64,000 nt of DNA from a virus (lineage: Duplodnaviria > Caudoviricetes): IMG/VR virus record IMGVR_UViG_3300028602_000002, positions 51,423-115,422 of that record. One strand, 5' to 3'. The notes under the pieces were generated by a model. The model made no database searches, had not been told where the DNA came from, and worked only from the letters and a program-made list of their open reading frames with translations. Shown here one piece after another: positions 46,208 through 60,206 of this stretch. How positions within the stretch are numbered: position 1 is the first letter of the stretch; each line of letters starts with the position of its first letter. Both the position numbers and the translations under genes were made by a program.

Positions 46208-46236
46208 ATTATACCACAAATTTTGAGAATTGTCAA
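46208..46236 (-). promoter_or_regulatory. sigmaA-type promoter
   Basis: TTGACA-17-TATAAT with extended TG. Confidence 0.85.
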
Positions 46237-46744: not shown

Positions 46745-46773
46745 ATTATACCACATTTTTTGAACTTTGTCAA
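46745..46773 (-). promoter_or_regulatory. sigmaA-type promoter
   Basis: TTGACA-17-TATAAT with extended TG. Confidence 0.85.
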
Positions 46774-47908: not shown

Positions 47909-47937
47909 ATTATATCATAATTTCTTAGTTTTGTCAA
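47909..47937 (-). promoter_or_regulatory. sigmaA-type promoter
   Basis: TTGACA-17-TATAAT with extended TG. Confidence 0.85.
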
Positions 47938-47939
47938 CT

Positions 47940-49175
47940 TTAAATGGCTTGTTCACCAATTAATTCAGTCTCACAAGCATGTTTTATTGGAGTCCATCCT
48001 CTCTGAATAATTTCACCACAATGTTCACAGTGAGTAAATTCATTATCAAAACAAATTTCGCAATAAAACTCTCCATCTACATTTATTAACTCCTCACGAT
48101 GTGTTGCTTCTGCACACGTGCAACAATATTCTAAAGGATTACAAACATCACACTCTATTGAATTATGTGAAGTTATATAATGATTTCCACACGATGGACA
48201 GAATGGCAAATTTCCTATACTTGTTTTACACAGCTCACTTGAATTTCTTATATAGGTTGGAATCAATGTTCTAATAAATTTATTTTTATAAGCACCTGAA
48301 TTACCATCAATAGATAATAAGTCATTAAAACAAATTTCATCAATTTCTTCATTAGGTTCTTCAACTAAATCACCAATAGAAGAAGAAGTAAATTTTCTAA
48401 ACATAAAATTCATTTCAGGATAGGCTGTCTTGAGTAACTTTTGTAATTTTTGCACTAGTTGCATCATTATAAATTTATTCTCAAAAGGATACTCTAAACT
48501 AAAAATGATATAGGGAATATCTTTACAGAAATGTATTAGAACCCTCCACTTTTTATTAGGAATCTCAACTTGATTTAAGGTGAAATCTTTATCTCCTTTA
48601 ACATAGCAAACAATAGTGCTTTCATCTGTCATTAAACTTAAAGTGCCACCTTTGTATTCACCATCAAGAAAGGAGTGACAAGAGTTCCATACATATGAAT
48701 TATCACTCATAGAGATATAGTCTAATGGATTGATGCTAATACATAACTGCCCTTCTGTTTTAAAAATTTGTAGAAAATTAGAATATCCCAATTCTATTCT
48801 CCTATAATCTATTTGACTCTTAACTACTCTTTTTAAAATTTTAGAAACTTTAATTCCGGCGTTAAATTTTTCATTATTAATAACAGTATCTTTCTGCAAC
48901 CTATTAGTAACTAAACTATTACTGTCAATTTGATTTAAAACATCTTCATACTTTTGAAAGAAAAAAAGAAATTTCTTTTTTGCAAACTCTTTCTGTCTTT
49001 CAGAAACATCCACAGAAATAGGATATGAAATAGTTAGATTTTTATTTAATAGCTTTTCATATATAAATCTTTTATTTTTTTCCCACTGTGATAAAATTGG
49101 AATTGAATGAGGTTGTTTACATGTCTCTATAGACATGATTTGGTTGAAATCCTTAATCAGTGAAGGTGTAATCAA
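47940..49175 (-). CDS. Hypothetical phage protein with C-terminal Zn ribbons
   Basis: S.NP.DY..MS....W.SC core and several CxxC; TTG 49175 has SD ggagg (track start overlaps a hairpin). Confidence 0.6.
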   Translation of the reverse strand: MITPSLIKDFNQIMSIETCKQPHSIPILSQWEKNKRFIYEKLLNKNLTISYPISVDVSERQKEFAKKKFLFFFQKYEDVLNQIDSNSLVTNRLQKDTVINNEKFNAGIKVSKILKRVVKSQIDYRRIELGYSNFLQIFKTEGQLCISINPLDYISMSDNSYVWNSCHSFLDGEYKGGTLSLMTDESTIVCYVKGDKDFTLNQVEIPNKKWRVLIHFCKDIPYIIFSLEYPFENKFIMMQLVQKLQKLLKTAYPEMNFMFRKFTSSSIGDLVEEPNEEIDEICFNDLLSIDGNSGAYKNKFIRTLIPTYIRNSSELCKTSIGNLPFCPSCGNHYITSHNSIECDVCNPLEYCCTCAEATHREELINVDGEFYCEICFDNEFTHCEHCGEIIQRGWTPIKHACETELIGEQAI

Positions 49176-49213
49176 TGCTATGCCTCCCAAATTAATTACT
49201 TTATAAATTAATG

Positions 49214-49244
49214 AAAGAGCCTCCTTAAAACAAGGAAGCTCTTC
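49214..49244 (-). terminator. Hairpin (probable terminator) after rsr
   Basis: GAAGAGCUUCCUU/AAGGAGGCUCUUU stem just after the TROVE stop. Confidence 0.65.
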
Positions 49245-49258
49245 CATAACAATAAATA

Positions 49259-50743
49259 CTATCTTAGGTTTTCAATATACTTAACCATGTTATCTACACC
49301 TTTTTCTACTAGAGGAATGAATGATAGAACCTTATCTGACCAGCCAGCTACATAGTTTACATTTTCTCCCAGGAATTGTTGACGACCATATCCTGCAGTA
49401 TCCATGATGTGTAACCAAACATTGCGATTAACTTTTGCTCTATACTGTTCAAAGTATTCTCTAGCATTACCTCTGCGACCAAAGTGCCCACCACCGCCAG
49501 CGAAGTCAGGATGAGCTTGATCATCACTTATAACTATAATTCTATCAGTGTAAATATTTTTATCCAATAGCCACTTGAAAATTAAAAACATGTTTGTGGC
49601 TCCAACTTGCATTTCCCTAACCACTTTACGAGTATTAGTTAAAACCCCACTTTGGCGGTTTAAAACTAAAGGCTCGAAGGTATTTGAAAATGTTGATGTA
49701 ATTGCAGAATCACATGAATGTTGTGCAATAGACATTAATAGTCCAGCTATCTCAGCACAAGTTATAGTACTTCTTTGAGAAGGTTTACTCCATGTCATAG
49801 ATCCTGAACCATCAGCTGATAATAAAGTCTTTCCTGACAGTCTTTCAACATTTCCTACTGAGAATCCAATGGCTTCTTCTAAAGTTTCTAGTGCTGCTTC
49901 TGTGTTGAAAGATGGAAATTGTTCAATCTCTCTGTAAGCGGCGTAGAATCTAAAAGGTAATTGGCGTGATTTCAATACTCTATCTCTATTAGAAAGAGTT
50001 TGCATTACCTTATTTACGTTATTAGGATCTGCTTTTAAGATGTTTCTTAAATTTCTTAAAAGAGCCATGTATCCTACTTTACCACTCTCAATTAGCTCTT
50101 CCCATGTTTCTTTATTATTACCGCGGGCTGACAATACAGTCTCCCATGTATATGGAGTTTTTAGATTGTCTTCTAACAGCCTTTTCCACATATCACTATA
50201 TTCCATAGTAGATGGACGTGGGTGAGCAATACATAGAATATCTTTTAGTTTAACTGCTTGGTTTCGATTATACTTCTGTAACTGGTATTCATCGAATTTA
50301 GGGAAGACATCAGCTAATCCTTTCTTTAAGCTGTTAGGTACTGGTTTTCCATAGTTATTTAGGAAATAAGCTAAAGTTTCTGTCATATCGTCTGGTCTGA
50401 CAACAACTTCTTTCATTACTTCTCTCACAAAAGGCTTACTTTCATTAACAGCAGCCATCTCTGCCATTATTGCATGAGTAACACTTCTTAGATTCAAAGT
50501 GTTTCTAGCATAGATTGCTAGATTGCGAACAAAAGCTGGATCTTTACAACACATATTTCTAATAGCACTAACCAGGTCTTTTGTTTGCTCGTTTACATTG
50601 CCGTAAAATTTAGGTTCTCCAAAAAATGTAGTTAGAACTTTTCTAACCAAATCTTCTTTTGCATTTGGAGTCTTAAATGCTGGAGCACCTTCATAAGTTG
50701 TAGTTCTGTTAACTCCTCTTTCTGACAAATTGAACTTTGCCAT
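49259..50743 (-). CDS. rsr: Ro60/TROVE-domain RNA-binding protein (Rsr ortholog)
   Basis: T.TYEG..AF, FDEYQL.KY, LKD.L...HP.P, TWET.LS, GYMALLRNLRNI, SRQLPFRF; vWA MIDAS DGSGSM and ISDDQ; ATG 50743 has SD aaggag. Confidence 0.95.
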   Translation of the reverse strand: MAKFNLSERGVNRTTTYEGAPAFKTPNAKEDLVRKVLTTFFGEPKFYGNVNEQTKDLVSAIRNMCCKDPAFVRNLAIYARNTLNLRSVTHAIMAEMAAVNESKPFVREVMKEVVVRPDDMTETLAYFLNNYGKPVPNSLKKGLADVFPKFDEYQLQKYNRNQAVKLKDILCIAHPRPSTMEYSDMWKRLLEDNLKTPYTWETVLSARGNNKETWEELIESGKVGYMALLRNLRNILKADPNNVNKVMQTLSNRDRVLKSRQLPFRFYAAYREIEQFPSFNTEAALETLEEAIGFSVGNVERLSGKTLLSADGSGSMTWSKPSQRSTITCAEIAGLLMSIAQHSCDSAITSTFSNTFEPLVLNRQSGVLTNTRKVVREMQVGATNMFLIFKWLLDKNIYTDRIIVISDDQAHPDFAGGGGHFGRRGNAREYFEQYRAKVNRNVWLHIMDTAGYGRQQFLGENVNYVAGWSDKVLSFIPLVEKGVDNMVKYIENLR

Positions 50744-50784
50744 CTCAATCACTCTCCTTTTAATTTTTAGGAAGTATAAAATAA

Positions 50785-50889
50785 ATAACACAACAGAGTA
50801 TTGGTGTTTACAGTTGCGTTTTTGGTCGCCACCTGGAGATAATTAGACTATTATCGAAGTAACTGCAAACTACACTACCGTTGTGTTAT
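50785..50889 (-). ncRNA. Y RNA-like unit 7 (payload: short hairpins)
   Basis: AUAACACAACGG UAGUGUA GUUUGCAGUU ACUUCG ... AACUGUAAAC ... CUGUUGUGUUAU; ends pair. Confidence 0.8.
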
Positions 50890-50898
50890 AAATTTCTT

Positions 50899-50976
50899 AG
50901 CAGAGAAAGTCAATAATGGTCTATATATGGCCGAACTTTTCCAGAATTCGAAGTAACCATTATTTACACTACTGCT
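50899..50976 (-). ncRNA. Y RNA-like unit 6 (payload: anticodon-like stem-loop, GGA)
   Basis: AGCAG UAGUGUA AAUAAUGGUU ACUUC GAAUU-CUGGAAA-AGUUC ... GACCAUUAUU ... CUGCU. Confidence 0.8.
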
Positions 50977-50986
50977 GTAATAGTGT

Positions 50987-51115
50987 AGGGAAGAATAAGC
51001 GAACAGAGAAATTTTACGCTCTACCACTTGAGCTACATGGGACATGCCCATGATAGGAGTCGAACCTATAGCCTCTCAATTAACAGTCGAAGTAACTCTG
51101 CTCTACACTGTCCCT
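50987..51115 (-). ncRNA. YrlA-like Y RNA unit 5 (circularly permuted tRNA-Asn-like domain)
   Basis: Scaffold plus UUCGA-CUGUUAA-UUGAG, T arm AUAGG-UUCGACU-CCUAU, closed acceptor CAUGGG/CCCAUG, D arm GCUC-AAGUGGUA-GAGC. Confidence 0.9.
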
Positions 51116-51133
51116 TCTAAGGGAAAAATTTTT

Positions 51134-51270
51134 TTGGGAAGAAAAGGCGAATAGAGGTTACGTTAAGCGTGCTATCATTACACTAAACCCCCATAATGGT
51201 GGAGGTCACAGGAATCAAACCTGTACTACTCGCTCCCTATGCGAAGTATCTCTACTCTACGCTATCCCAA
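51134..51270 (-). ncRNA. YrlA-like Y RNA unit 4 (circularly permuted tRNA-Pro-like domain)
   Basis: Scaffold plus UUCGC-AUAGGGA-GCGAG, T arm ACAGG-UUUGAUU-CCUGU, acceptor GACCUCC-ACCAUUAU-GGGGGUU, D arm GUGU-AAUGAUA-GCAC. Confidence 0.88.
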
Positions 51271-51284
51271 ATTAAAATCTATTT

Positions 51285-51389
51285 AAGGGAGAATTGTCGC
51301 AAACAGTTTTTATTTGTGGGATTTGAACCCACTGAATTAAATTAGAAGTTTAATTTTTTACCGAAGTAACTGTTTACTGCACTACCCTT
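51285..51389 (-). ncRNA. Y RNA-like unit 3 (payload: anticodon arm UCU plus T arm)
   Basis: AAGGG UAGUGCA GUAAACAGUU ACUUCG .. AUUAAA-CUUCUAA-UUUAAU, GUGGG-UUCAAAU-CCCAC .. AACUGUUUGC .. CCCUU. Confidence 0.85.
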
Positions 51390-51403
51390 TAAAGTCATAT
51401 TGA

Positions 51404-51493
51404 GGGAGAGGAAGTATCGCCAACACTTTTTTTTATAAAATAAATACTTTCTCAAATAATTAAGTCGAAGTAAGTGTTGACTTCGCTGCTCCC
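51404..51493 (-). ncRNA. Y RNA-like unit 2 (AU-rich payload)
   Basis: GGGAG CAGCGAA GUCAACACUU ACUUCG ... AAGUGUUGGC ... CUCCC. Confidence 0.8.
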
Positions 51494-51500
51494 AGCTTAT

Positions 51501-51628
51501 AAAGCGAACAAATTCAGTGAGGCTAAGTCTTTTAGTAGAAGACATAAAACCTGTTGACAAGAGAATTTCTTCTCAATGTCCACTTGATCATCTGTATACG
51601 AAGTATTCCCCACTTGCAGTATCGCTTT
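51501..51628 (-). ncRNA. Y RNA-like unit 1 (payload: GAAA hairpin plus anticodon-like stem-loop, ACU)
   Basis: AAAGCGA UACUGCA AGUGGGG AAUACUUCG ... GUCUU-CUACUAA-AAGAC ... CCUCACU ... UCGCUUU. Confidence 0.75.
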
Positions 51629-51645
51629 TTTTACTTTCTATATAT

Positions 51646-51674
51646 ATTATACCATAATTTTTACGTTTTGTCAA
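51646..51674 (-). promoter_or_regulatory. sigmaA-type promoter for the Y RNA array-rsr operon
   Basis: TTGACA-17-TATAAT with TATG extended -10; predicted TSS about 10 nt before unit 1. Confidence 0.88.
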
Positions 51675-52257
51675 GAGAAACTTTATGGTTTAAAAGCTGT
51701 TTATTTCTCCATAAATTAAATTCTCTTCTTAATAATTCAAAATCTTTAGTGGTATCTTTCTTTTTATCAGGATCTCTCAATAGAGCCGCTGGATGAAACA
51801 TTGGTAATATTTTATACTCATTCTTTTGAAACCATCTTCCTCTTAGTTCTGTAATTCCATTGGGTAAATTTATAAATGCTTTTGTAGCAATATTACCTAA
51901 TGTAACAATTATTTTAGGAGAGATAATTTCTAACTGATCAGATAAAATTTCTTTACAGCTTTCAATCTCTTTAATATAAGGATTGCGATTATTGGGAGGA
52001 CGACATTTAACTACATTAGTAATGTAAATATCTTTCCTCTCAGCACCTATTAAATCTAAATAATTATTTAATAGATAGCCAGCTGCTCCACAAAAAGGAA
52101 CTCCTTCAATATCTTCATTATATCCTGGAGCTTCTCCTACAAATAATATTTCAGTATTAATATTCCCTTCTCCAAAAACAATATTTGTTCTACCCTTCCA
52201 TAAATCACATCTTTGACAACTTTGATAGTTTAAATACATTTTTTCTAATCTATCCAT
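51661..52257 (-). CDS. Uracil-DNA glycosylase, family 4
   Basis: C..C.L...R...VFG.G, VGEAPG, TNVVKCRPP.NR, HPAALL; start ATG 52257. Confidence 0.93.
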   Translation of the reverse strand: MDRLEKMYLNYQSCQRCDLWKGRTNIVFGEGNINTEILFVGEAPGYNEDIEGVPFCGAAGYLLNNYLDLIGAERKDIYITNVVKCRPPNNRNPYIKEIESCKEILSDQLEIISPKIIVTLGNIATKAFINLPNGITELRGRWFQKNEYKILPMFHPAALLRDPDKKKDTTKDFELLRREFNLWRNKQLLNHKVSLDKT

Positions 52258-52321
52258 ATGAACTCCTCTTTTATAAGAAATTTGAAAATAATAAAACTTT
52301 ATTATTCTCAAAAATAAGTTC

Positions 52322-52670
52322 TGGTGGAGCCGAGGGGAATCGAACCCCTGTCCGCAATATCTTTCAATAAATTAGTTTACTCTCATAGTCACTTATAGCT
52401 GTGACCGCTGCCCAGTAGCCCGGGGCACCACTCATTTTTTAATGGAGAAAATGAGAAACCTAAACACTTTATGGAATTAGTGTGAACCAAAGAGTGGTTT
52501 ATTTTTCTAAGCTCAGGAGTTGCTTAAACCATAAAGCTCTCCATTTTGCACTTAGTTTTAAGCCTAAGCAGCTTTTAATTTAGGTTCTGCAATTATTCAT
52601 ATACGTTTAACGATCGCCATCGGAGAGAGTAATTTACTTACTTAATACCACGTCGAAACCAGACGGCCCC
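52322..52670 (-). ncRNA. ssrA: tmRNA
   Basis: 5' GGGGCCGUCUGGUUUCGAC; 3' GGACAGGGGUUCGAUUCCCCUCGGCUCCACCA; G3-U pair; tag frame AEPKLKAA* at 52590-52564. Confidence 0.95.
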
Positions 52671-53317: not shown

Positions 53318-53392
53318 TGGTAGCGGACCCCAGGATTGAACTGGGTTACGTAGCTTATGAGGCTACTGAGATAGCCATACCTCCCGACCGCA
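53318..53392 (-). tRNA. tRNA-Met(CAU), initiator-like and atypical
   Basis: Cloverleaf, loop CUCAUAA, 1:72 mismatch, A11-U24, CCA encoded. Confidence 0.8.
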
Positions 53393-53515
53393 TTGTTTTC
53401 TCTCCTTTATCTCTTGACTTTCATCTTGAAATAGTAAACAACCATCTATTTCTTCATTATTATATATAGGACAAAGATATTTTTTCCAACAGTCATTACA
53501 TTTATTTTCCATACT

Positions 53516-53770
53516 TCAATTAACCCTCCCACAGTAAAAATTTTTACAAGTAAGGGGTCTATCTTCATAAATTTCACATAATCTGGTTTTTGGGTTTAAA
53601 AAAATGCACATATGTAGGTCATCACATAACTTCCAATTTAAAACTTTTACTCCTGTACTTCTAATTCTATAGAAATTTAGTTCAGTGATGGTAGTTATCC
53701 TTTCTATATCACTCTCTATAAGAGAGACAGTTTTACTGATACAGCACTCAGCACATTTTAAACACTTCAT
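53516..53770 (-). CDS. YkgJ-family CxxCxxCC protein
   Basis: CLKCAECC...CIFL......CEIYEDRPLTC. Confidence 0.85.
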   Translation of the reverse strand: MKCLKCAECCISKTVSLIESDIERITTITELNFYRIRSTGVKVLNWKLCDDLHMCIFLNPKTRLCEIYEDRPLTCKNFYCGRVN

Positions 53771-53792
53771 AGTTATTCTCCTTATAAGAGAC

Positions 53793-54161
53793 TTAACTGC
53801 CTGTAATTTCATCTATTTCTTTTGAATTAGCTGGTCCAATAGCAATACAAGTTTTAGTGGGCTGATTATTAAATTCTGTTAGTCCAGAATCAATTATCAT
53901 ACAACAAGGTAATTCCGCTTCATTGGCTAATTTGTATAAATTATCTAACTCTTCCTCAGAATTACAGCCTACAATTATCTTAGTAAATAAACCATGCAAC
54001 CAATCTTTCATTTCTTGAGTTAAACGCACATATAAAATATCTTTTATAGGAGAAATGTTTTTATCAAAAAATATTTTCATAGAAGCATGTGCAACTTGTG
54101 CTGCTAGTTTTCCCTTTCTCATATTCAAATCTTTTCTAACAACTATTACTTGTTTAATCAT
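53793..54161 (-). CDS. pth2: Peptidyl-tRNA hydrolase, Pth2 type
   Basis: KQVIVVRKDLNM.KGKLAAQVAHA, KIIV, IDSGLTE, TCIAIGP, ID.ITG; C-terminus apparently frameshifted. Confidence 0.92.
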   Translation of the reverse strand: MIKQVIVVRKDLNMRKGKLAAQVAHASMKIFFDKNISPIKDILYVRLTQEMKDWLHGLFTKIIVGCNSEEELDNLYKLANEAELPCCMIIDSGLTEFNNQPTKTCIAIGPANSKEIDEITGS

Positions 54162-54171
54162 ACTAACACCT

Positions 54172-54597
54172 CTAATTAGAATAAATTTTTCCATTACTGT
54201 CTAAGAAAATTACTTCTTCTATCATAGCATTTTTAATCATTCTATCACACATCAAGCAAGGAACTCCACTAGCAAATCCACCTTCTTTTTCAGTTCCAGC
54301 TATATAAATTTTAGCACCTTTCATTTTAACAGGATCTCCACTTATAATAGCATTAGCTTCAGCATGAATAGCCACACATAATTCATACCTTTCTCCTTTT
54401 GGAATTTTTAATTTTTCTCTAATACAAACTCCAAGATCTATACAATTATCTTGACCTCTAGCTGAACCGTTGTATCCTGTGCTAATAATAGTATTATTTG
54501 ATACGATCACAGCTCCGTAATTTCTTCTTAGACAAGTAGAACGCTTTGATACAGCAAGAGCTATATCAATAAAATATTTATTCCAATCCGATCTCAT
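54172..54597 (-). CDS. dCMP deaminase family protein
   Basis: RSTC.RR..GAVIV, TGYNG, HAEANAI, PCLMC. Confidence 0.9.
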   Translation of the reverse strand: MRSDWNKYFIDIALAVSKRSTCLRRNYGAVIVSNNTIISTGYNGSARGQDNCIDLGVCIREKLKIPKGERYELCVAIHAEANAIISGDPVKMKGAKIYIAGTEKEGGFASGVPCLMCDRMIKNAMIEEVIFLDSNGKIYSN

Positions 54598-54626
54598 ATT
54601 ATTATCTCCTTTTAATGAAAATAAAG

Positions 54627-54700
54627 TGGTGGTCCCGCTTGGAATCGAACCAAGACCAAGCGGTTATGAGCCGCCCGCTCGCCCTTCGAGCTACGGGACC
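54627..54700 (-). tRNA. tRNA(CAU), probably Ile2 (lysidine), otherwise elongator Met
   Basis: Cloverleaf, loop CUCAUAA, acceptor GGUCCCG (C4, C5), CCA. Confidence 0.85.
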
Positions 54701-54703
54701 ACG

Positions 54704-54778
54704 TGGTAGGGCTACTAGGAGTCGAACCTAGAGAACATGATTAGAAGTCATGTGCTTTGTCCATTAAGCGATAGCCCC
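54704..54778 (-). tRNA. tRNA-Arg(UCU)
   Basis: Cloverleaf, loop CUUCUAA, CCA. Confidence 0.92.
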
Positions 54779-55131
54779 ATATTAACTAATCCTCTATCCA
54801 TTACTCTAACGTAAGTCTTTTGTGGGAGAAGCCTATCTTTAATAGATAAATACCCAAATATGGGATCCACTGTTTCCCCACAAGTAAAAATATCAATAGC
54901 TGCATATTGATACTCAGGCCAAGTATGAATACTTATATGTGATTCTGATAGAATTAAAGCTCCTGTTATCCCTTGAAGATTAAATTCATGGAAGCAACTT
55001 CCACAAATAGAGGCACCAGTAGCTATTGCAGCCTCCTTTAAAGCAGAAGAAATAATTCCAATATCATTTAATACTTCACTATTACAGCCATAAAATTCAA
55101 TTAACATATGAGTTCCAATTGGTTTCACCAT
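54748..55131 (-). CDS. speD: S-adenosylmethionine decarboxylase proenzyme
   Basis: G.H.LIE.YGC, ILSESHISIHTWPEY.YAA.D.FTCG. Confidence 0.93.
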   Translation of the reverse strand: MVKPIGTHMLIEFYGCNSEVLNDIGIISSALKEAAIATGASICGSCFHEFNLQGITGALILSESHISIHTWPEYQYAAIDIFTCGETVDPIFGYLSIKDRLLPQKTYVRVMDRGLVNMGLSLNGQST

Positions 55132-55156
55132 AGGGCTTCCCCCCTTACATAGAAAA

Positions 55157-55338
55157 TAGGGCGGCTTTGAGAATAACTTTGGGGCTTAGGTCTGCTGAGA
55201 TTTCCTCATAGCAGATCACCACTTAGCTTCCACCGTAAACCCTCAAAGCCAAATAACTTGGGAATTTCTCCAATAGAGCAATACTATTCTGTCATAAACA
55301 GCAGGCCTGTAATAGTAAAGCTCACAAGCCATGCCCTA
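55157..55338 (-). ncRNA. Unassigned multi-branched structured RNA (speD leader or standalone)
   Basis: About 15 bp of end pairing plus three or four internal helices. Confidence 0.55.
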
Positions 55339-55638
55339 TAGATGACTATTCATAGTAATAACTATATCAGGAAATTTCTTTTCCAATCTTTTTTTAATTA
55401 GCAAACTTCCTGTTTTACTAAAACTGTGAAAATTTATATACTGAATAAAGATATTCTTCCTGATTAAAAATGTAATAGCATCTAATGCCAATCTTGAATC
55501 AGCTAAATTATGATCAAGAGAAAGGAAATCTATTTCCTCTTTTTTAAGAAGAGAAACAAAATCTACTAAGTTTCTAATTATAGTGAATTCCTTTTCATTT
55601 TTAGGAGTTTTCTCTACATCTAAATAAACTTTTAACAT
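55336..55638 (-). CDS. Cyclic-phosphate-processing receiver-like domain protein (degenerate)
   Basis: VYLDVEK.P ... SLDHNL ... I.FHS resembles the LDD.R...SLDHDL...HS.N pattern. Confidence 0.6.
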   Translation of the reverse strand: MLKVYLDVEKTPKNEKEFTIIRNLVDFVSLLKKEEIDFLSLDHNLADSRLALDAITFLIRKNIFIQYINFHSFSKTGSLLIKKRLEKKFPDIVITMNSHL

Positions 55639-55662
55639 TTTTTTCTCTCCTTTATAAAAATT

Positions 55663-55789
55663 AAGACTATCAAGTTAAGAGGTCTTCGAGATTGTCAGCT
55701 CGCCAGTTCTTAAAAGCATTAATCCTATATAGTCTGGCAGGACTATATAGCAACCAATACCCAATGCTGCCACATTACTTGATAGTCTT
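55663..55789 (-). ncRNA. Unassigned structured RNA with possible pseudoknot
   Basis: 13-bp terminal inverted repeat aagactatcaagt; 10-bp inner hairpin. Confidence 0.55.
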
Positions 55790-55799
55790 TTACTTCCAT

Positions 55800-55873
55800 T
55801 GGCTGAGGAGAAAGGGCTCGAACCTTTACTGTAAGATCCAAAGTCTTACGTGCTACCATTACACTACTCCCCA
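55800..55873 (-). tRNA. tRNA-Gln(UUG)
   Basis: Cloverleaf, U1-A72, loop CUUUGGA, CCA. Confidence 0.9.
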
Positions 55874-55874
55874 G

Positions 55875-55949
55875 TGGTAGAGGTATGAGGAATTGAACCT
55901 CAATCTGATGGTTCGTAGCCACCTATTTTGTCCATTAAACTATACCTCT
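55875..55949 (-). tRNA. tRNA-Arg(ACG)
   Basis: Cloverleaf, loop CUACGAA, CCA. Confidence 0.9.
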
Positions 55950-55950
55950 A

Positions 55951-56495
55951 TTACAAAATTGATATCATTAGTTTCTCTAATTCAATCGGTTTAAAACCGA
56001 TAACATCCATTGATACATTGAAATGCTTATCTGAACCCAAATCATTCCCATGAATATGTCCATGCACATTAGGTTGCTGTATTTTTATATTATTATTTTT
56101 TAAAACACTTCTAACAGAATCAACATGACACCCTTTTAATTCAGCTACTTTTGTTATATTTTGATATTTCTCATAACATTTAATAATATCTTCATAGTTT
56201 AAGTATCTTTTACTATCACCTCCTAAAGTAGCATTGTATCCCGTTGAGCCATATGTATTAAATTTTTTTATATAATACTGCTCTCTTTCTTCAGAATTAT
56301 CAGACTCTTCTAATAGCTCAATTTTAAAATTTTCAATTCCATATTTATTTATTGCCCTATACAATGGTCTGTCTTTGCACCTTTCTCTTTTGCTATCTTT
56401 AATATGTTCTTGAAATCTTTTTTCTATGTTTGATTCAGTTTTTCCAATATACATTTTTCCATTCACTAAATTAATAATTTTATATATTTTGCCAT
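55951..56495 (-). CDS. GIY-YIG homing endonuclease (Seg-like); 5' frameshift; phosphoesterase-like C-terminal tail
   Basis: KIYKI.N.VNGKMYIGKT...KRF.EH...AI.KYG.ENF....LE...GYN.T.GG; ATG 56495 has an SD but is one base out of frame. Confidence 0.85.
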
Positions 56496-56510
56496 TTTTT
56501 TCCCTCCCTT

Positions 56511-56578
56511 TAGGTTTTATGGCGGGCGAATAAATTGAAAGGGCAATTTATTCATCAGTCCTGCAGAACCTGCCCGCC
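56511..56578 (-). promoter_or_regulatory. Structured leader/pseudoknot upstream of the endonuclease SD
   Basis: GGCGGGC/GCCCGCC stem, inner GAAUAAAUUG/CAAUUUAUUC hairpin, AGGUU/AACCU crossing pair. Confidence 0.55.
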
Positions 56579-56589
56579 TTTTATAATTT

Positions 56590-56665
56590 TGGTGGCAGCT
56601 CCCAGAATTGAACTGGGGACGCCTAGATTTTCAGTCTAGCGCTCTACCAACTGAGCTAAGCCGCC
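56590..56665 (-). tRNA. tRNA-Phe(GAA)
   Basis: Canonical 76-nt cloverleaf, CCA. Confidence 0.95.
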
Positions 56666-56668
56666 ATA

Positions 56669-56824
56669 TTAAACAAAGCTTTCAAAAATCCATTCGTCTT
56701 CATATCTAATTTGTAAAATATCTACCATTTCTAACCATCTCATTTCTCCATCATAAATCATAGGAAAGAAAGCAAACCTCTTAATAACTCTTTTATCTCC
56801 ATTTTTAGGAACCCTTAACCTCAT
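56669..56824 (-). CDS. Small hypothetical protein (51 aa)
   Basis: MRLRVPKNGDKRVIKRFAFFP...RWLE; SD aaggag; below the track cutoff. Confidence 0.6.
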   Translation of the reverse strand: MRLRVPKNGDKRVIKRFAFFPMIYDGEMRWLEMVDILQIRYEDEWIFESFV

Positions 56825-56853
56825 TAGGTATCATCTCCTTTTTAGAAATAAAA

Positions 56854-56928
56854 TGGAGGGACTGCAGAGAATTGAACTCTGAAGCAATAGTTTTGCAGAC
56901 TATGCCCTGACCAACAGGATACAGCCCC
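56854..56928 (-). tRNA. tRNA-Cys(GCA)
   Basis: Loop CUGCAAA, U73, CCA. Confidence 0.9.
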
Positions 56929-56933
56929 TATGT

Positions 56934-57018
56934 TGGTGGGAGAGGAGAGATTTGAACTCTCACGCCTTACGGCACTAGCTTCTAAGACTAGCGCGCCTGC
57001 CAGTTACGCCACCCTCCC
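56934..57018 (-). tRNA. tRNA-Leu(UAG)
   Basis: Loop CUUAGAA, long variable arm, CCA. Confidence 0.93.
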
Positions 57019-57022
57019 ATGT

Positions 57023-57098
57023 TGGTGGACCAGAAGAGATTTGAACTCTCATCTTTCTCCTTGCAAGGGAGACGCTTTCCCAATTAAGCTACCGGCCC
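57023..57098 (-). tRNA. tRNA-Ala(UGC)
   Basis: Loop CUUGCAA, G3-U70, CCA. Confidence 0.93.
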
Positions 57099-57128
57099 GT
57101 ATAATATTTCTTTTTTCACTCTACATAT

Positions 57129-57157
57129 ATTATATCATAAAATTTCTATTTTGTCAA
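57129..57157 (-). promoter_or_regulatory. sigmaA-type promoter for the main tRNA cluster
   Basis: TTGACA-17-TATAAT with extended TG. Confidence 0.85.
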
Positions 57158-57178
57158 GTAAAAAAAGAAGGAAGAAAA

Positions 57179-57252
57179 TGGAGCGACTAAGGAGAATCGA
57201 ACTCCTATCTCTTGGATGGCACCCAAGCGTAATTCCTTTATACTATAGTCGC
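57179..57252 (-). tRNA. tRNA-Gly(GCC)
   Basis: GCG start, loop GUGCCAU, U73, CCA. Confidence 0.9.
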
Positions 57253-58052
57253 TAATCTACTTTCTCTAAAAATTCTTCTGCCCAGGCAAACCCATCTGTT
57301 TTACCATCTTCATCATATAGTAAATATAAATTTTTAGTTTTATATTCATCAGTAGTTTTATTTGCAACCTTTCCTGTTATATATTCTCCAACTTGAATAT
57401 AAATATAGTATTTATCTTGTGGATTTCTGGCATAATCTTTGTTCGGTTTTCCGTTCTCAATCCATAGAGGATAATCCCCAACCGTTTTAAAATAGTTTAC
57501 CCGAATGCGTTTGCCTTCTTTGTTATACATTCCATTAATAAAAAGTGGTTTCATAAGTTTTGCTTTCACTTCAGCTTTTTTATTTTTTAATTGATCAAGA
57601 TGTGCTTCATAAGTTATTTTGTTATTATAATCATTTAATCTATAAGGTAATATCACTCCTACAAATTCAAACTGTTCTCCTCTAAAAATCGGCATAGGAG
57701 AATTTAACATACCAGGATAATAAAATAATCTACATTTTAAATCCTTAATAAAATTATAATACATTTCTTGTACTGCCACATTATCTTTTGTTAATAATAC
57801 TCCGTCTGATTCTTTACTATAGTACATAGGCTCAAATTCTGTTGTATTTTCTTGTTGTGTTCTTTCTTCTTCCCTGGTGAATAATTTTTCTAACATTGAC
57901 TTTCTTGATTCATCACTTACAGGGAATGTTGATACAAGATTCTTTTGGGTTTTCTTTAGGCAATTTAACTTAATAAGAAAATGATTATTAGATAATAGTT
58001 CATCAGTTACAAATTTATCCTTTAGGAAAAAATCTTTAAATTTATATGACAT
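57252..58052 (-). CDS. Hypothetical protein
   Basis: 266 aa; SD aaggag. Confidence 0.6.
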   Translation of the reverse strand: MSYKFKDFFLKDKFVTDELLSNNHFLIKLNCLKKTQKNLVSTFPVSDESRKSMLEKLFTREEERTQQENTTEFEPMYYSKESDGVLLTKDNVAVQEMYYNFIKDLKCRLFYYPGMLNSPMPIFRGEQFEFVGVILPYRLNDYNNKITYEAHLDQLKNKKAEVKAKLMKPLFINGMYNKEGKRIRVNYFKTVGDYPLWIENGKPNKDYARNPQDKYYIYIQVGEYITGKVANKTTDEYKTKNLYLLYDEDGKTDGFAWAEEFLEKVD

Positions 58053-58079
58053 TAGGTTTTACTCCTTTTTATTTTTTTT

Positions 58080-58334
58080 TTAGTTTATAACCCATAGATA
58101 AAAATTGGGTAGCCCTATTTGTACGCCGCCGTTGTCACGCTGCCAATAGAAGAACGGCAACCTTATTAACCAATGCCAATGCCTTAATTGTCCGTGCGGG
58201 CTTACAGTAAATTTTAAGTTTTTAAATCCTATTCCTTTAAACCAAAACTTAACTTTGTTTTTGCGTTTAATCACAACCAATTTTCCGTTAATGAGTTGAT
58301 ACGCATTGTGCCCTTCATGTCTAAATATTTTCAT
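58080..58334 (-). CDS. Hypothetical basic/aromatic protein
   Basis: ATG 58334 has SD aggagg. Confidence 0.55.
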   Translation of the reverse strand: MKIFRHEGHNAYQLINGKLVVIKRKNKVKFWFKGIGFKNLKFTVSPHGQLRHWHWLIRLPFFYWQRDNGGVQIGLPNFYLWVIN

Positions 58335-58528
58335 TTTCAATCCTCCTATTGAACAAAATTCACATTTGGATAAATGTACGACCAATAGATTCAGACATAG
58401 CTTTTCTGGCTAGCATAATAGGTTTATTACTATTCTCGTAAACTTTCCTACAGATATACCAGTAATTCTGTTTCACTTTAACTTTATCACCAATATCAAG
58501 CATATCTATTCTCCTTTGTTGAATAAGA

Positions 58529-58603
58529 TGGCGGGAGCACAAGGATTCGAACCCAGAGCGACGGTTTTGGAGACCGTAATGTTACCATTGACACCATACT
58601 CCC
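58529..58603 (-). tRNA. tRNA-Trp(CCA)
   Basis: Loop CUCCAAA, G73, CCA. Confidence 0.9.
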
Positions 58604-58717
58604 GCACACATTTATACCTTTTCTTTTTTCTCTTTCAGAGAGAGTTTAAATTTCTCTAGCTTTCTAGCTTGCTCTTGCCCTATAATTTGACGGAAATTCC
58701 AGAGACTAGTATTCTGT

Positions 58718-58993
58718 TTACTTTGTTTTTTCATTATCTTTCCCTCCATATTCTTTAATATTATTAGGTACGCGATAAATAAAAGGCTCTCCAGTTGATT
58801 TGTATTTTGTTAACATTTTCTTTATTTCAATAGCGGTATCATTACATAGCTTTTGTGTTTTAAACTCACCTAAAATCAAAGGCATAGAAAATCCTTCTTT
58901 TTTAGGATAGGCTAGTAGTACCTTATCCATTGTATATATTCCATAGTGTCTCATATCAAAAATAATTTTTCTATTCTGTTCAACGACAAACAT
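58718..58993 (-). CDS. Hypothetical protein
   Basis: ATG 58993 has SD gaggagg. Confidence 0.55.
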   Translation of the reverse strand: MFVVEQNRKIIFDMRHYGIYTMDKVLLAYPKKEGFSMPLILGEFKTQKLCNDTAIEIKKMLTKYKSTGEPFIYRVPNNIKEYGGKDNEKTK

Positions 58994-59074
58994 ATTAATC
59001 CTCCTCAAAGAAAAGATGGCTCCCAGCTTTCACCAGGAGCCAGAGAATAAGGTGGTGATACACTTTGCACATAT

Positions 59075-59103
59075 ATTATATCACAAAATTTGATTTTTGT
59101 CAA
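59075..59103 (-). promoter_or_regulatory. sigmaA-type promoter
   Basis: TTGACA-17-TATAAT with extended TG. Confidence 0.85.
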
Positions 59104-59107
59104 GCAT

Positions 59108-59299
59108 TTATTTACTTTGTGAACAAGGTAGACAACAAGAAATTTCTTTTACTATCTCCCATCCTTCAGGAATTCTATCAATAGTTTTATCTGGCTTAAG
59201 AACTGGGTCATAAATCCTTCCTCTTGTTTCAGTAACAATTTTGATTGGTTTCACTCTGTTGGGCTGTGCTTTCTTACAAACATCACATATAAAGCTCAT
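59108..59299 (-). CDS. Small Zn-ribbon protein
   Basis: CDVC...GWEIVKE...C..C; SD aggagg. Confidence 0.6.
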   Translation of the reverse strand: MSFICDVCKKAQPNRVKPIKIVTETRGRIYDPVLKPDKTIDRIPEGWEIVKEISCCLPCSQSK

Positions 59300-59311
59300 A
59301 AGTTCTCCTCC

Positions 59312-59851
59312 TTAGTTATAATTATCTAAAAATTTTAAAAATTCATTCACAGCTTTTGATAAATTTTCTATACCAGATTCAGAATTAATAACATAGTCAA
59401 AATTTTGATATGAGTCAAGTGCCACTTCAGATGGATGGGCTTGCTGTTCTAAAGTTAATGGAGTTTTGAAATTTAATCTATTAATCTTGACAGCAATTAT
59501 TTCCCAATCTCCTTCTCGCCACTTATCTATTTCATTTGGAAAGCGACAATCAGGAATTATGACATAATCCCATTGATTTTTAAACATAGATAAAAAATCT
59601 ATTACGAAGTCAACCCAATAGTCTGGTCTTTGTTTTCTAATAACATTAGTTCCAACATATTGAAGTAAATCTCTACCAAAATTATTTTTTTCTCCATTCC
59701 AATTAAAGTATTGCTTACAGATATATTTTAAAAGATCTGCAAAATGTATAATAAGTACTTTTTCTTTCTTCTGTTTTAAATTTTCTTCAATCATTTTGGC
59801 GGCTGTATCTTTACCAGAAAGAGCTTTTCCCGCTATTAAAATAACCTTCAA
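59312..59851 (-). CDS. Deoxynucleoside monophosphate kinase
   Basis: GKALSGKDT, FAD.LK, R.LLQ..GT...R, DCRFPNE, HPSE. Confidence 0.85.
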   Translation of the reverse strand: MKVILIAGKALSGKDTAAKMIEENLKQKKEKVLIIHFADLLKYICKQYFNWNGEKNNFGRDLLQYVGTNVIRKQRPDYWVDFVIDFLSMFKNQWDYVIIPDCRFPNEIDKWREGDWEIIAVKINRLNFKTPLTLEQQAHPSEVALDSYQNFDYVINSESGIENLSKAVNEFLKFLDNYN

Positions 59852-59911
59852 AAAATACCTCCATTTCTTATTCAAAAATAAAGCTGTGTTTTACCACAGC
59901 TGTAAGTTACA

Positions 59912-60109
59912 TTAAAACTCCCAATCTTCAATATCATTAAGGTCAAGATCTGAAAGGTCATCCAAATCATGTAGTGATGATATCATTCCTGTTAGATCCT
60001 TTAGTTTTTTATTTTCTTTTTTCCTTGTTTTTTTATTCAGCTGTTTTTTAATAGCAGATTTCTTTTGAAAACCATTAACACGATCTTCTTCATCAAAATT
60101 ACGACCCAC
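59912..60109 (-). CDS. Small charged hypothetical protein
   Basis: 65 aa, basic middle and acidic tail; SD aggagg. Confidence 0.55.
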   Translation of the reverse strand: MGRNFDEEDRVNGFQKKSAIKKQLNKKTRKKENKKLKDLTGMISSLHDLDDLSDLDLNDIEDWEF

Positions 60110-60131
60110 TATTGTTCCTCCTTAAATTAAA

Positions 60132-60206
60132 TGGTGGGGGCTATAGGATTTGAACCTATGACTTCTTGCTTGTAAGGCAAACGCTCTCCCGCTGAACTAA
60201 GCCCCC
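60132..60206 (-). tRNA. tRNA-Val(UAC)
   Basis: Loop CUUACAA, canonical cloverleaf, CCA. Confidence 0.94.

What the first reader, a model, noticed from the sequence alone, without database searches (positions are those of the whole stretch)
49259..51674. Phage Ro60 (Rsr) operon led by a tandem array of seven diverged Y-RNA-like genes
Seen: the ~850 bp upstream of the TROVE gene is not coding. It is seven back-to-back units of 78-137 nt (51501-51628, 51404-51493, 51285-51389, 51134-51270, 50987-51115, 50899-50976, 50785-50889) between a perfect TTGACA-17-TATAAT promoter and rsr, with a hairpin after the rsr stop. Each unit has one architecture: 5'/3' terminal stem; a bulged motif close to AGYGYAR (AGCGAAG in unit 2, ACUGCAA in unit 1); a 7-10 bp stem; invariant UACUUCG; a variable payload; then the complementary strand and a pyrimidine-rich bulge. 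Stem sequences differ between units yet still pair, which is natural covariation. Established: Ro60/Rsr binds Y RNAs encoded beside its gene; bacterial Y RNAs are modular (Ro-binding stem plus effector domain); from memory, their 5' strand carries a GNCGAA-type motif and loci usually have one or two Y RNAs. Inference: this is an expanded repertoire in which one Ro60 is programmed by seven interchangeable effector RNAs. I do not know of a described seven-member array, but I could not search.
Basis: partly seen in the sequence, partly recalled or inferred. Interest (0 to 1): 0.95.

Follow-up and report, generated by a model that had tools for sequence, protein, structure and literature searches.

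The report
Seven Y-RNA genes before phage Ro60
An uncultured 115-kb phage carries seven back-to-back small RNA genes that share one conserved "handle" but have different inserts, in front of its gene for the ring-shaped RNA-binding protein Ro60; this is a large example of a Ro60/Y-RNA array that I found to be common in phages and soil bacteria, yet found no paper describing arrays of this size.

Summary
There are seven units at 50785-51628 on the minus strand. They lie between a perfect TTGACA-17-TGnTATAAT promoter and a TROVE/Ro60 gene (49259-50743), and a 17-bp hairpin follows the stop codon. UACUUCG occurs seven times in the 64-kb window, always once per unit.

A covariance model built only from units at other phages' Ro loci finds six units at E 6.5e-19 to 4.4e-9. 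It finds unit 1 weakly (15 bits), and nothing else in the 115-kb genome. Both stems covary strongly, within the array (96.9% paired against 43-57% in slid controls) and across 117 units from 37 phage loci.

The units are diverged YrlA-type Y RNAs. Units 4 and 5 carry complete tRNA-like modules and unit 3 a partial one. Units 1, 2, 6 and 7 carry lineage-specific inserts. None reaches Rfam's YrlA threshold.

Seven is large but not unique. Phage loci hold 1-8 units (mode 2). Eighty bacterial loci, mostly Acidobacteriota, hold 0-7 (median 3.5). This scan has already noted comparable arrays beside Ro60-like genes on other DNA.

Ro binding, processing and function are inferred, not shown. I rate it a new variant of a known kind, of moderate to high interest.

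The parts
51646..51674 (-). Sigma-70-type promoter: TTGACA, 17 nt, TGnTATAAT (extended -10). It overlaps the last codons of the upstream UDG-family gene.
   Evidence: 12/12 match, TG present; sequence. The same promoter is present in the relative L001/L130.
51501..51628 (-). Unit 1. It has the most diverged handle (ACUGCAA, an AA spacer before UACUUCG) and a ~85-nt insert that is not tRNA-like.
   Evidence: R1 gives 15 bits, E 9e-4, only with filters off. The ortholog in L130 keeps both stems through 4 compensatory double changes.
51404..51493 (-). Unit 2. Its 5' motif AGCGAAG is the closest to the published GNCGAAG. The insert is a UUCGA/UUGAG hairpin with a 9-nt loop, followed by an A/U-rich tail.
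   Evidence: R1 39.6 bits, E 4.4e-9. The unit is absent from L130, which keeps only a remnant of its 3' tail.
51285..51389 (-). Unit 3. The insert is a 7-bp hairpin with loop CUUCUAA plus a T-arm (GGGUUCAAAUCCC). There is no acceptor or D arm.
   Evidence: R1 62.2 bits. Weak Rfam tRNA hit of 28 bits. The loop is identical to that of the phage's own tRNA-Arg(UCU).
51134..51270 (-). Unit 4. It carries a complete permuted tRNA-like module: hairpin UUCGC-AUAGGGA-GCGAG, T arm, 7-bp closed acceptor stem with ACCA in its loop, and D arm.
   Evidence: R1 63.1 bits. Weak Rfam permuted-tmRNA hit over the T arm plus ACCUCCACCA. Fold.
50987..51115 (-). Unit 5. It carries a complete YrlA-type tRNA-like module: hairpin UUCGA-CUGUUAA-UUGAG, AGGC, T arm, closed 5-bp acceptor-like stem, and D arm.
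   Evidence: R1 73.6 bits, E 6.5e-19. Rfam YrlA RF02553 34.5 bits, E 1.8e-5, model positions 27-81; Rfam tRNA 29.8 bits.
50899..50976 (-). Unit 6, the shortest. The insert is a 7-bp hairpin with the 7-nt loop CUGGAAA.
   Evidence: R1 42.8 bits; hairpin parse.
50785..50889 (-). Unit 7. It has a 12-bp terminal stem. The insert contains the CCAGGUGGCGACCA motif, which is conserved in L130.
   Evidence: R1 40.9 bits over 50792-50882. Fold z = -5.0. Ortholog comparison.
49259..50743 (-). Ro60/Rsr gene (494 aa; TROVE plus vWA with a DxSGS MIDAS motif). The RBS AAAGGAGAG lies 41 nt after unit 7, with no terminator between them.
   Evidence: Pfam TROVE 6.8e-40, vWA_Ro60 6.6e-8. PHROG 850. The nearest solved structure is Thermus phage phiLo Ro60, 9KOP/9L5Y, E 4e-41. 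MIDAS residues are invariant in A1.
49211..49247 (-). Hairpin with a 17-bp stem, 12 nt after the rsr stop, followed by UAAUUUAUAA. It is a probable terminator, attenuator or processing site.

Best explanation
The region is a phage operon for a Ro60/Y-RNA ribonucleoprotein.

One strong host-type promoter transcribes seven Y-RNA genes and the Ro60 gene as a single precursor. The precursor is then cut in the short A/U-rich spacers of 7-18 nt, and possibly by tRNA-processing enzymes at the tRNA-like modules. This yields seven RNAs of about 80-140 nt.

Each RNA carries the same Ro-binding handle:
- a terminal stem;
- a 5' bulge, UAGYGYAG, which is a variant of the GNCGAAN0-1G motif contacted by Ro60;
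- an 8-10-bp stem;
- UACUUCG, whose UA matches the conserved kink dinucleotide of YrlA;
- a 3' bulge, CG..UUCY.

Each RNA carries a different effector module. Units 4 and 5 have full tRNA mimics. Unit 3 has a T arm plus an anticodon-like hairpin. Units 2 and 6 have hairpins only. Units 1 and 7 have lineage-specific folds.

By analogy with Deinococcus, Salmonella and phage phiLo, the RNAs would gate the Ro60 cavity. They would also tether the ring to different host partners, such as PNPase or tRNA-binding enzymes.

What is shown here: the gene arrangement, the conserved handle, the covariation, the linkage to Ro genes, and the tRNA-like modules. What is inferred: transcription as one unit, processing, Ro60 binding, and the partners.
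For: - Anatomy and promoter.
- Independent model R1, trained on 26 units from 15 other phage loci, finds all seven units and nothing else in the genome.
- Covariation: within the array 96.9% of cells are paired against 43-57% in slid controls, and 12 of 14 pairs change on both sides. Across 117 units from 37 phage loci, 91.5% are paired against 39-49%, with 594 double-change cells against 89-149. Between orthologous units of the window and L130, 7 pairs changed on both sides and stayed paired, 8 changed on one side and stayed paired, and 5 of 90 were broken.
- Linkage: 117 hits in phage loci (116 on the rsr strand) and 263 in bacterial loci (all on the rsr strand), all close to rsr.
- Partial YrlA match for unit 5. 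A related unit in L155 reaches 44.5 bits full-length.
- The protein is a bona fide TROVE plus vWA Ro60. Its nearest solved relative is phiLo Ro60, which has been shown to bind two upstream phage Y-like RNAs and host PNPase (PMC12135203).
- In M. smegmatis, YrlA and YrlB lie upstream of rsr and are processed from one precursor (PMC4201824).
Against: - No expression, processing or binding data could be obtained.
- No unit reaches Rfam's YrlA gathering score: 34.5 against 69.
- The 5' motif differs from the published GNCGAAG at two positions in most units.
- Unit 1 is only weakly recognised by the model, at 15 bits.
- R1 does not detect the experimentally validated Yrl1 and Yrl2 of phiLo. The handle studied here therefore has no direct biochemical validation.
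Confidence: 0.85

Rival explanations
1. The units act mainly in cis, as a structured leader of the rsr mRNA. Ro60 would bind its own leader and regulate its own synthesis or mRNA stability, and the units would not be released as free RNAs.
For: There is no terminator between unit 7 and the rsr RBS, which are 41 nt apart. All units share the presumed Ro-binding handle.
Against: In other genomes the same units lie downstream of rsr (L138, L140, crAss001) or are interleaved with tRNA genes (L131). That does not fit a leader role. Seven units with diversified inserts, including full tRNA mimics, are more than autoregulation needs. In M. smegmatis, upstream Y RNAs are processed from the precursor (PMC4201824).
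Confidence: 0.05
2. The units are functional small RNAs, but the shared handle is recognised by a protein other than Ro60, for example a host or phage tRNA-processing or defence-related factor. Their adjacency to rsr would then reflect only a shared RNA-metabolism island.
For: The locus sits at the end of a tRNA/tmRNA island. R1 does not hit the validated phiLo Yrl RNAs. UACUUCG is conserved even where no tRNA-like module follows it.
Against: Same-strand linkage to Ro genes is tight in 37 of 48 phage loci and 73 of 80 bacterial loci that are otherwise unrelated. There are no R1 hits in 80 loci chosen for the neighbouring orf435 family, nor elsewhere in this genome. The 5' motif resembles the Ro-contacted GNCGAAG.
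Confidence: 0.07
3. The region is a decayed tRNA-gene cluster, made of pseudo-tRNAs, with no organised function.
For: Weak Rfam tRNA hits fall on units 3 and 5, and T-arm-like sequences occur in units 3-5.
Against: Four units have no tRNA-like element. All seven share a non-tRNA handle with strong compensatory covariation. The array is conserved with compensatory changes in a phage whose Ro protein is 68% identical.
Confidence: 0.02

Closest known systems
Bacterial and mycobacteriophage YrlA/YrlB Y RNAs with Rsr (Chen et al. 2014, PMC4201824; Rfam RF02553; Wang et al. 2018, bioRxiv 10.1101/312249)
   Same: - Encoded next to rsr on the same strand.
- A long 5'/3' stem with a purine-rich 5' motif.
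- A YUAY/UA element at the start of the effector domain.
- In units 4 and 5, T arm, closed acceptor-like stem and D arm in the YrlA order.
- Upstream Y RNAs processed from one precursor in M. smegmatis.
   Different: - Seven units rather than one or two.
- The 5' motif is UAGYGYAG rather than GNCGAAG.
- UACUUCG is invariant, and a conserved 3' bulge CG..UUCY is present.
- Rfam scores are far below the gathering threshold (34.5 against 69).
- Four units have no tRNA-like domain.
- The 'V' hairpin has the anticodon-loop signature.
Thermus phage phiLo Ro60 with Yrl1/Yrl2 (NAR 2025, PMC12135203; PDB 9KOP, 9L5Y)
   Same: A phage-encoded Ro60, and the nearest solved relative of this protein (E 4e-41). 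Y-like RNAs lie directly upstream of the gene. Binding to Ro60 and to host PNPase has been shown in vitro.
   Different: phiLo has two RNAs against seven here. My handle model does not detect the phiLo RNAs. The proteins are only 28% identical.
Deinococcus radiodurans Rsr with Yrn1/Yrn2 (RYPER complex with PNPase)
   Same: Several small RNAs are encoded upstream of rsr. The Y RNA is modular: a Ro-binding stem plus an effector module that tethers an exoribonuclease.
   Different: The handle belongs to a different lineage, with both helix strands conserved as in metazoans. The tRNA-like arms are oriented differently. No PNPase-binding module is recognisable here.

Membership tests
YrlA-type Y RNA (Rfam RF02553; Chen et al. 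2014) | Encoded within a few kb of a Ro60/Rsr gene, on the same strand | tested here: met
   All seven units lie 41-885 nt upstream of the TROVE gene, on its strand.
YrlA-type Y RNA (Rfam RF02553; Chen et al. 2014) | [quoted passage not shown] | tested here: met
   Two helices are supported by covariation: 96.9% paired against 43-57% in slid controls, and 12 of 14 pairs with double changes.
YrlA-type Y RNA (Rfam RF02553; Chen et al. 2014) | GNCGAAN0-1G motif near the 5' end (the presumed Ro contact) | tested here: inconclusive
   Unit 2 has AGCGAAG. The other units have AGYGYAG/AGUGUAA/ACUGCAA. Relatives in other loci have UGGCGUAG or UGGUGAAG. This is a recognisable variant, not the published consensus.
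YrlA-type Y RNA (Rfam RF02553; Chen et al. 2014) | Conserved YUAY / UA at the start of the effector (V) region | tested here: met
   UUAC or AUAC is present in all seven units, as part of the invariant UACUUCG.
YrlA-type Y RNA (Rfam RF02553; Chen et al. 2014) | tRNA-like module: T arm, closed acceptor-like stem, D arm | tested here: met
   Met for units 4 and 5 only. Unit 3 has a T arm only. Units 1, 2, 6 and 7 lack the module and so resemble the YrlB class.
YrlA-type Y RNA (Rfam RF02553; Chen et al. 2014) | Score at or above the Rfam gathering threshold (69 bits) | tested here: not met
   The best score in the window is 34.5 bits (unit 5, partial). No RF02553 hit reached the threshold in 20 related phage loci. 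The best related unit scores 44.5 bits.
YrlA-type Y RNA (Rfam RF02553; Chen et al. 2014) | Bound and stabilised by Rsr/Ro60 in vivo | not testable with these tools
   This needs a Ro60 pull-down (RIP) or gel shift (EMSA).
Ro60/Rsr protein (TROVE plus vWA) | TROVE HEAT-repeat domain followed by a vWA domain with a MIDAS motif | tested here: met
   Pfam TROVE 6.8e-40 and vWA_Ro60 6.6e-8. DxSGS is invariant in alignment A1. The protein matches phiLo Ro60 over residues 13-488.

The most novel reading that the evidence does not exclude
The array is a display panel. Ro60 would be loaded with RNAs that present different anticodon-arm or whole-tRNA mimics: loops matching Arg-UCU, Asn-GUU and Ser-GGA, a Pro-like loop, and one module with an alanine/tmRNA-type acceptor end. 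Their role would be to decoy host tRNA-cleaving defence nucleases, or to recruit those nucleases or tRNA-repair and modification enzymes, during infection.

This implies that the hairpin called 'V' in YrlA RNAs is, in this subfamily, a true anticodon-arm mimic whose 'anticodon' is the variable, selected part.
Probability: 0.15. Interest if true: 0.85.

Novelty: new variant of a known kind. Interest (0 to 1): 0.6.

Why it matters
Ro60 and Y RNAs are conserved from bacteria to humans, and Ro60 is a major lupus and Sjogren autoantigen. What the variable Y-RNA effector modules do is still largely unknown outside two or three species.

This locus, together with the roughly 380 related units I found beside Ro genes in phages and Acidobacteriota, shows that nature repeatedly builds arrays of 4-8 Y RNAs. 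These share one covarying handle and carry diversified inserts. Many inserts have a canonical anticodon-loop signature.

This provides three things:
- a ready-made comparative data set for defining the Ro-binding code;
- a subfamily that Rfam does not currently annotate;
- a tractable phage system for testing whether Y RNAs act as interchangeable adaptors or as tRNA decoys.

Tried and rejected
- A DNA search of the locus against 50,697 phage records found no match.
- An exact-pattern scan of viral contigs with a 14-base pattern gave mostly chance hits. Only L012 and L030 were useful.
- Rfam at gathering thresholds gave no YrlA hit, either in the window or in 20 related loci.
- The R1 model found nothing at the phiLo and Vibrio pv27 Ro loci.
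- The downstream 435-aa ORF as a dedicated partner: it has no Pfam family, no PDB sequence match and no Foldseek match to its model of pLDDT 81. Its family occurs in at least 193 viral loci, and none of the 80 I examined has a Y unit within 5 kb. I therefore do not count it as part of the system.
- nhmmer with the 29-nt 5' half of the handle was too insensitive for counting units.
- One cmsearch call was wasted on a mis-set threshold.
- The reviews PMC10870794 and PMC6542706 are not held, so I could not check what they say about Y-RNA numbers. The supplementary tables of Chen et al. 2014 are not held either.
Full report
**What is there**

The window is the last 64 kb of a complete 115,422-bp virus record with direct terminal repeats. 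The following elements lie in order on the minus strand:
- a UDG-family gene (51661-52311; Pfam UDG 2.8e-35);
- a perfect extended -10 promoter: TTGACA 51674-51669, 17 nt, TGgTATAAT ending at 51646 (12/12);
- seven units at 51628-50785, separated by A/U-rich spacers of 7-18 nt;
- an RBS (AAAGGAGAG) and the ATG at 50743 of a 494-aa TROVE plus vWA protein;
- the stop codon at 49259-49261, and a hairpin with a 17-bp stem at 49247-49211.

UACUUCG occurs seven times in the 64 kb, once per unit and always on this strand. The expectation is 2.5, and no shuffle reached 7.

**Is it more than chance?**

I built covariance model R1 from 26 units taken only from 15 other phages' Ro loci. It excludes the window and its close relative L130.
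- With filters off it finds unit 1 at 15 bits, E 9e-4.
- It finds nothing else in the window or in the whole phage genome.

Covariation supports both helices:
- Among the seven units alone, 96.9% of helix cells pair, against 43-57% when partners are slid. Twelve of 14 pairs change on both sides. The covariation score is 1.00 against 0.23 or less.
- Across 117 units from 37 phage loci, 91.5% pair against 39-49%. There are 594 double-change cells against 89-149. That alignment was fitted to the model, which inflates the figures somewhat, but the margin is very large.
- L001/L130 is a phage whose Ro protein is 68% identical. It has the same promoter and six orthologous units. Of 90 stem pairs compared, 70 are unchanged, 8 changed on one side and still pair, 7 changed on both sides and still pair, and 5 are broken. 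Four of the compensatory changes are in the weakly scoring unit 1.
- L130 lacks unit 2 but keeps a remnant of its 3' tail (AAUAACUUCCUCUUUC against GAUACUUCCUCUCCC). Units are therefore lost, and presumably gained, by recombination within the array.

**What it is**

The protein is a genuine Ro60:
- TROVE 6.8e-40 and vWA_Ro60 6.6e-8;
- MIDAS motif DxSGS invariant in alignment A1;
- the nearest solved structure is Thermus phage phiLo Ro60, E 4e-41.

The units match the published anatomy of YrlA-type Y RNAs (PMC4201824; bioRxiv 10.1101/312249):
- they are adjacent to rsr on its strand;
- they have a long terminal stem;
- they have a purine-rich 5' motif related to GNCGAAN0-1G;
- they have the conserved YUAY/UA element, here inside UACUUCG.

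Units 4 and 5 also have the T arm, closed acceptor-like stem and D arm in YrlA order. Rfam's YrlA model aligns to that part of unit 5 at 34.5 bits, E 1.8e-5.

The subfamily is diverged, however. No unit here or in 20 related loci reaches Rfam's 69-bit threshold, and the best related unit scores 44.5 bits. The inserts differ as follows:
- unit 3 has only a hairpin plus a T arm;
- units 2 and 6 carry single hairpins;
- units 1 and 7 carry inserts with no similarity outside L130.

Of 124 units classified, 23 have T and D arms, 20 have a T arm only, and 79 have neither.

**How unusual is seven?**

- In 48 viral Ro loci, 37 have units: 2 loci with one unit, 14 with two, 8 with three, 7 with four, 3 with five, 2 with six and 1 with eight.
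- The 8-unit array (L131; Ro 46% identical) is interleaved with real tRNA genes. Another array contains a permuted tmRNA.
- crAss001 has three units in the unannotated gap after gp96.
- In 80 bacterial-genome Ro loci, mostly Terriglobia MAGs with 3-kb flanks, 73 have units. The median is 3.5 and the maximum is 7. The distribution is 7 loci with one unit, 14 with two, 12 with three, 20 with four, 10 with five, 8 with six and 2 with seven.
- Every unit but one (116 of 117 in phage loci, all 263 in bacterial loci) is on the rsr strand.
- The papers I could search describe two Y RNAs per locus in phage phiLo, Salmonella and M. smegmatis, and two to four in vertebrates. I found no description of arrays of five or more. 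Two key reviews and the supplements of Chen et al. 2014 were not available.
- Earlier notes of this scan report comparable arrays beside Ro60-like genes in other phages. I treat these as leads only.

**Mechanism**

My best-supported model has three steps:
1. A single strong promoter drives a polycistronic precursor.
2. The spacers are cleaved, and tRNA enzymes may act on the tRNA-like modules.
3. Each RNA binds Ro60 through the shared handle and presents a different effector module, gating the ring and tethering it to different partners.

Transcription as one unit, processing and binding are inferred from three published precedents:
- M. smegmatis Y RNAs are processed from one precursor.
- Deinococcus Y RNA forms a complex with Rsr and PNPase.
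- phiLo Ro60 binds two upstream Y-like RNAs and host PNPase.

**An extra layer**

In tRNA-like units, the hairpin that starts at the UUCG of UACUUCG is the one Chen et al. call 'V'. Among 216 distinct seeds across all loci, 63 have a 5-bp stem starting exactly there, and 39 of those have a 7-nt loop. In those 39 loops:
- position 1 is a pyrimidine in 33;
- position 2 is U in 37;
- position 6 is a purine in 39;
- position 7 is A in 35;
- a tRNA-like variable loop, AGGUC or AGAUG, commonly follows.

This is the canonical anticodon-loop signature. The 'anticodon' triplet varies: GUU seven times, CAG five, GAU four, and others.

In the window the loops are:
- unit 3, CUUCUAA, identical to the loop of the phage's own tRNA-Arg(UCU);
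- unit 4, AUAGGGA;
- unit 5, CUGUUAA;
- unit 6, CUGGAAA.

Unit 4's closed acceptor stem reads GGGGGUU/GACCUCC with a G3:U70 wobble, A73 and an encoded CCA (51186-51207). That is the alanine/tmRNA identity set, but the L130 ortholog lacks it.

These observations fit a tRNA-decoy or tRNA-enzyme-recruiting role. I give that reading about 15%.

**Surroundings**

- The locus closes a tRNA/tmRNA island: tmRNA at 52322-52670 and twelve tRNA genes at 53318-60206.
- Four perfect extended -10 promoters lie on this strand within 6.8 kb.
- The 435-aa ORF after rsr is rich in CxxC motifs at its C-terminus. It has no family or fold match, and its family is not generally linked to Y units.
- A ligase of the ATP-dependent DNA-ligase family follows, under its own promoter.

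**Verdict**

This is a diverged, expanded Ro60/Y-RNA array: a new variant of a known kind. It is most valuable as part of a widespread pattern for which I found no published description.

Noticed in passing
window 51186-51207 (-), inside unit 4: The closed acceptor stem GGGGGUU/GACCUCC has a G3:U70 wobble, A73 and an encoded CCA in its loop (ACCAUUAU). This is the alanine/tmRNA identity set. After RNase P cleavage and 3' trimming it could yield a two-piece RNA that can be charged. The L130 ortholog lacks both the CCA and the G:U pair.
   Followed up: partly
All Ro loci (L131-L177, L265-L344) and window units 3-6: The hairpin starting at the UUCG of UACUUCG (the 'V' arm of YrlA) has a 5-bp stem and a 7-nt loop in 39 of 63 cases. 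Loop position 2 is U in 37 of 39, position 6 is a purine in 39 of 39, and position 7 is A in 35 of 39. AGGUC commonly follows. This is a canonical anticodon arm plus variable loop, with diverse 'anticodons'. GUU is the most frequent triplet.
   Followed up: partly
L131 (IMGVR_UViG_3300035670_000153), locus 51-2223: Eight Y-like units are interleaved with genuine tRNA genes upstream of a Ro gene that is 46% identical to the window's. This is the largest array seen, and it implies co-processing with tRNAs.
   Followed up: partly
L183 = Bacteroides phage crAss001 NC_049977.1, locus 4485-5081: Three Y-like units with a UUACUUCA variant lie in the unannotated ~900-nt gap downstream of the TROVE gene gp96. 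They score 32.3, 19.4 and 15.9 bits.
   Followed up: no
L265-L344 (bacterial genome contigs, mostly Terriglobia/Acidobacteriota MAGs): There are 263 Y-like units in 73 of 80 Ro loci, all on the rsr strand. Arrays of 4-7 are common within 3 kb upstream. The closest bacterial-genome Ro relatives of the phage protein (41-42% identity) are in Clostridia, Bacilli and Solobacterium MAGs, which hints at a Bacillota host.
   Followed up: partly
window 47940-49178 (-): A 412-435-aa ORF lies directly after the rsr hairpin. It has a conserved N-terminal domain (W.SCHS..GEYRGG..S) and a C-terminus with at least ten CxxC-type cysteines. It has no Pfam or PDB match and no Foldseek match to a model of pLDDT 81. 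Its family is found in at least 193 viral loci but is not linked to Y units elsewhere.
   Followed up: yes
window 46208-46236, 46745-46773, 47909-47937, 51646-51674 (-): Four perfect TTGACA-17-TGnTATAAT promoters lie within 6.8 kb on one strand. This suggests strong host-sigma-dependent early or middle transcription units.
   Followed up: no
window 52322-52670 (-) and 53318-60206 (-): A phage-encoded tmRNA (tag AEPKLKAA*) and twelve tRNA genes lie immediately upstream on the same strand. The Ro/Y array closes this RNA island.
   Followed up: no
L171 (provirus record), locus 1311-1697: A circularly permuted (two-piece type) tmRNA gene (Rfam 130 bits) sits inside an array of six Y-like units upstream of a Ro gene.
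   Followed up: no
L130 485-505 against window 51390-51420: The relative lacks unit 2 but retains a remnant of its 3' tail. This shows that units are deleted by recombination within the array.
   Followed up: partly
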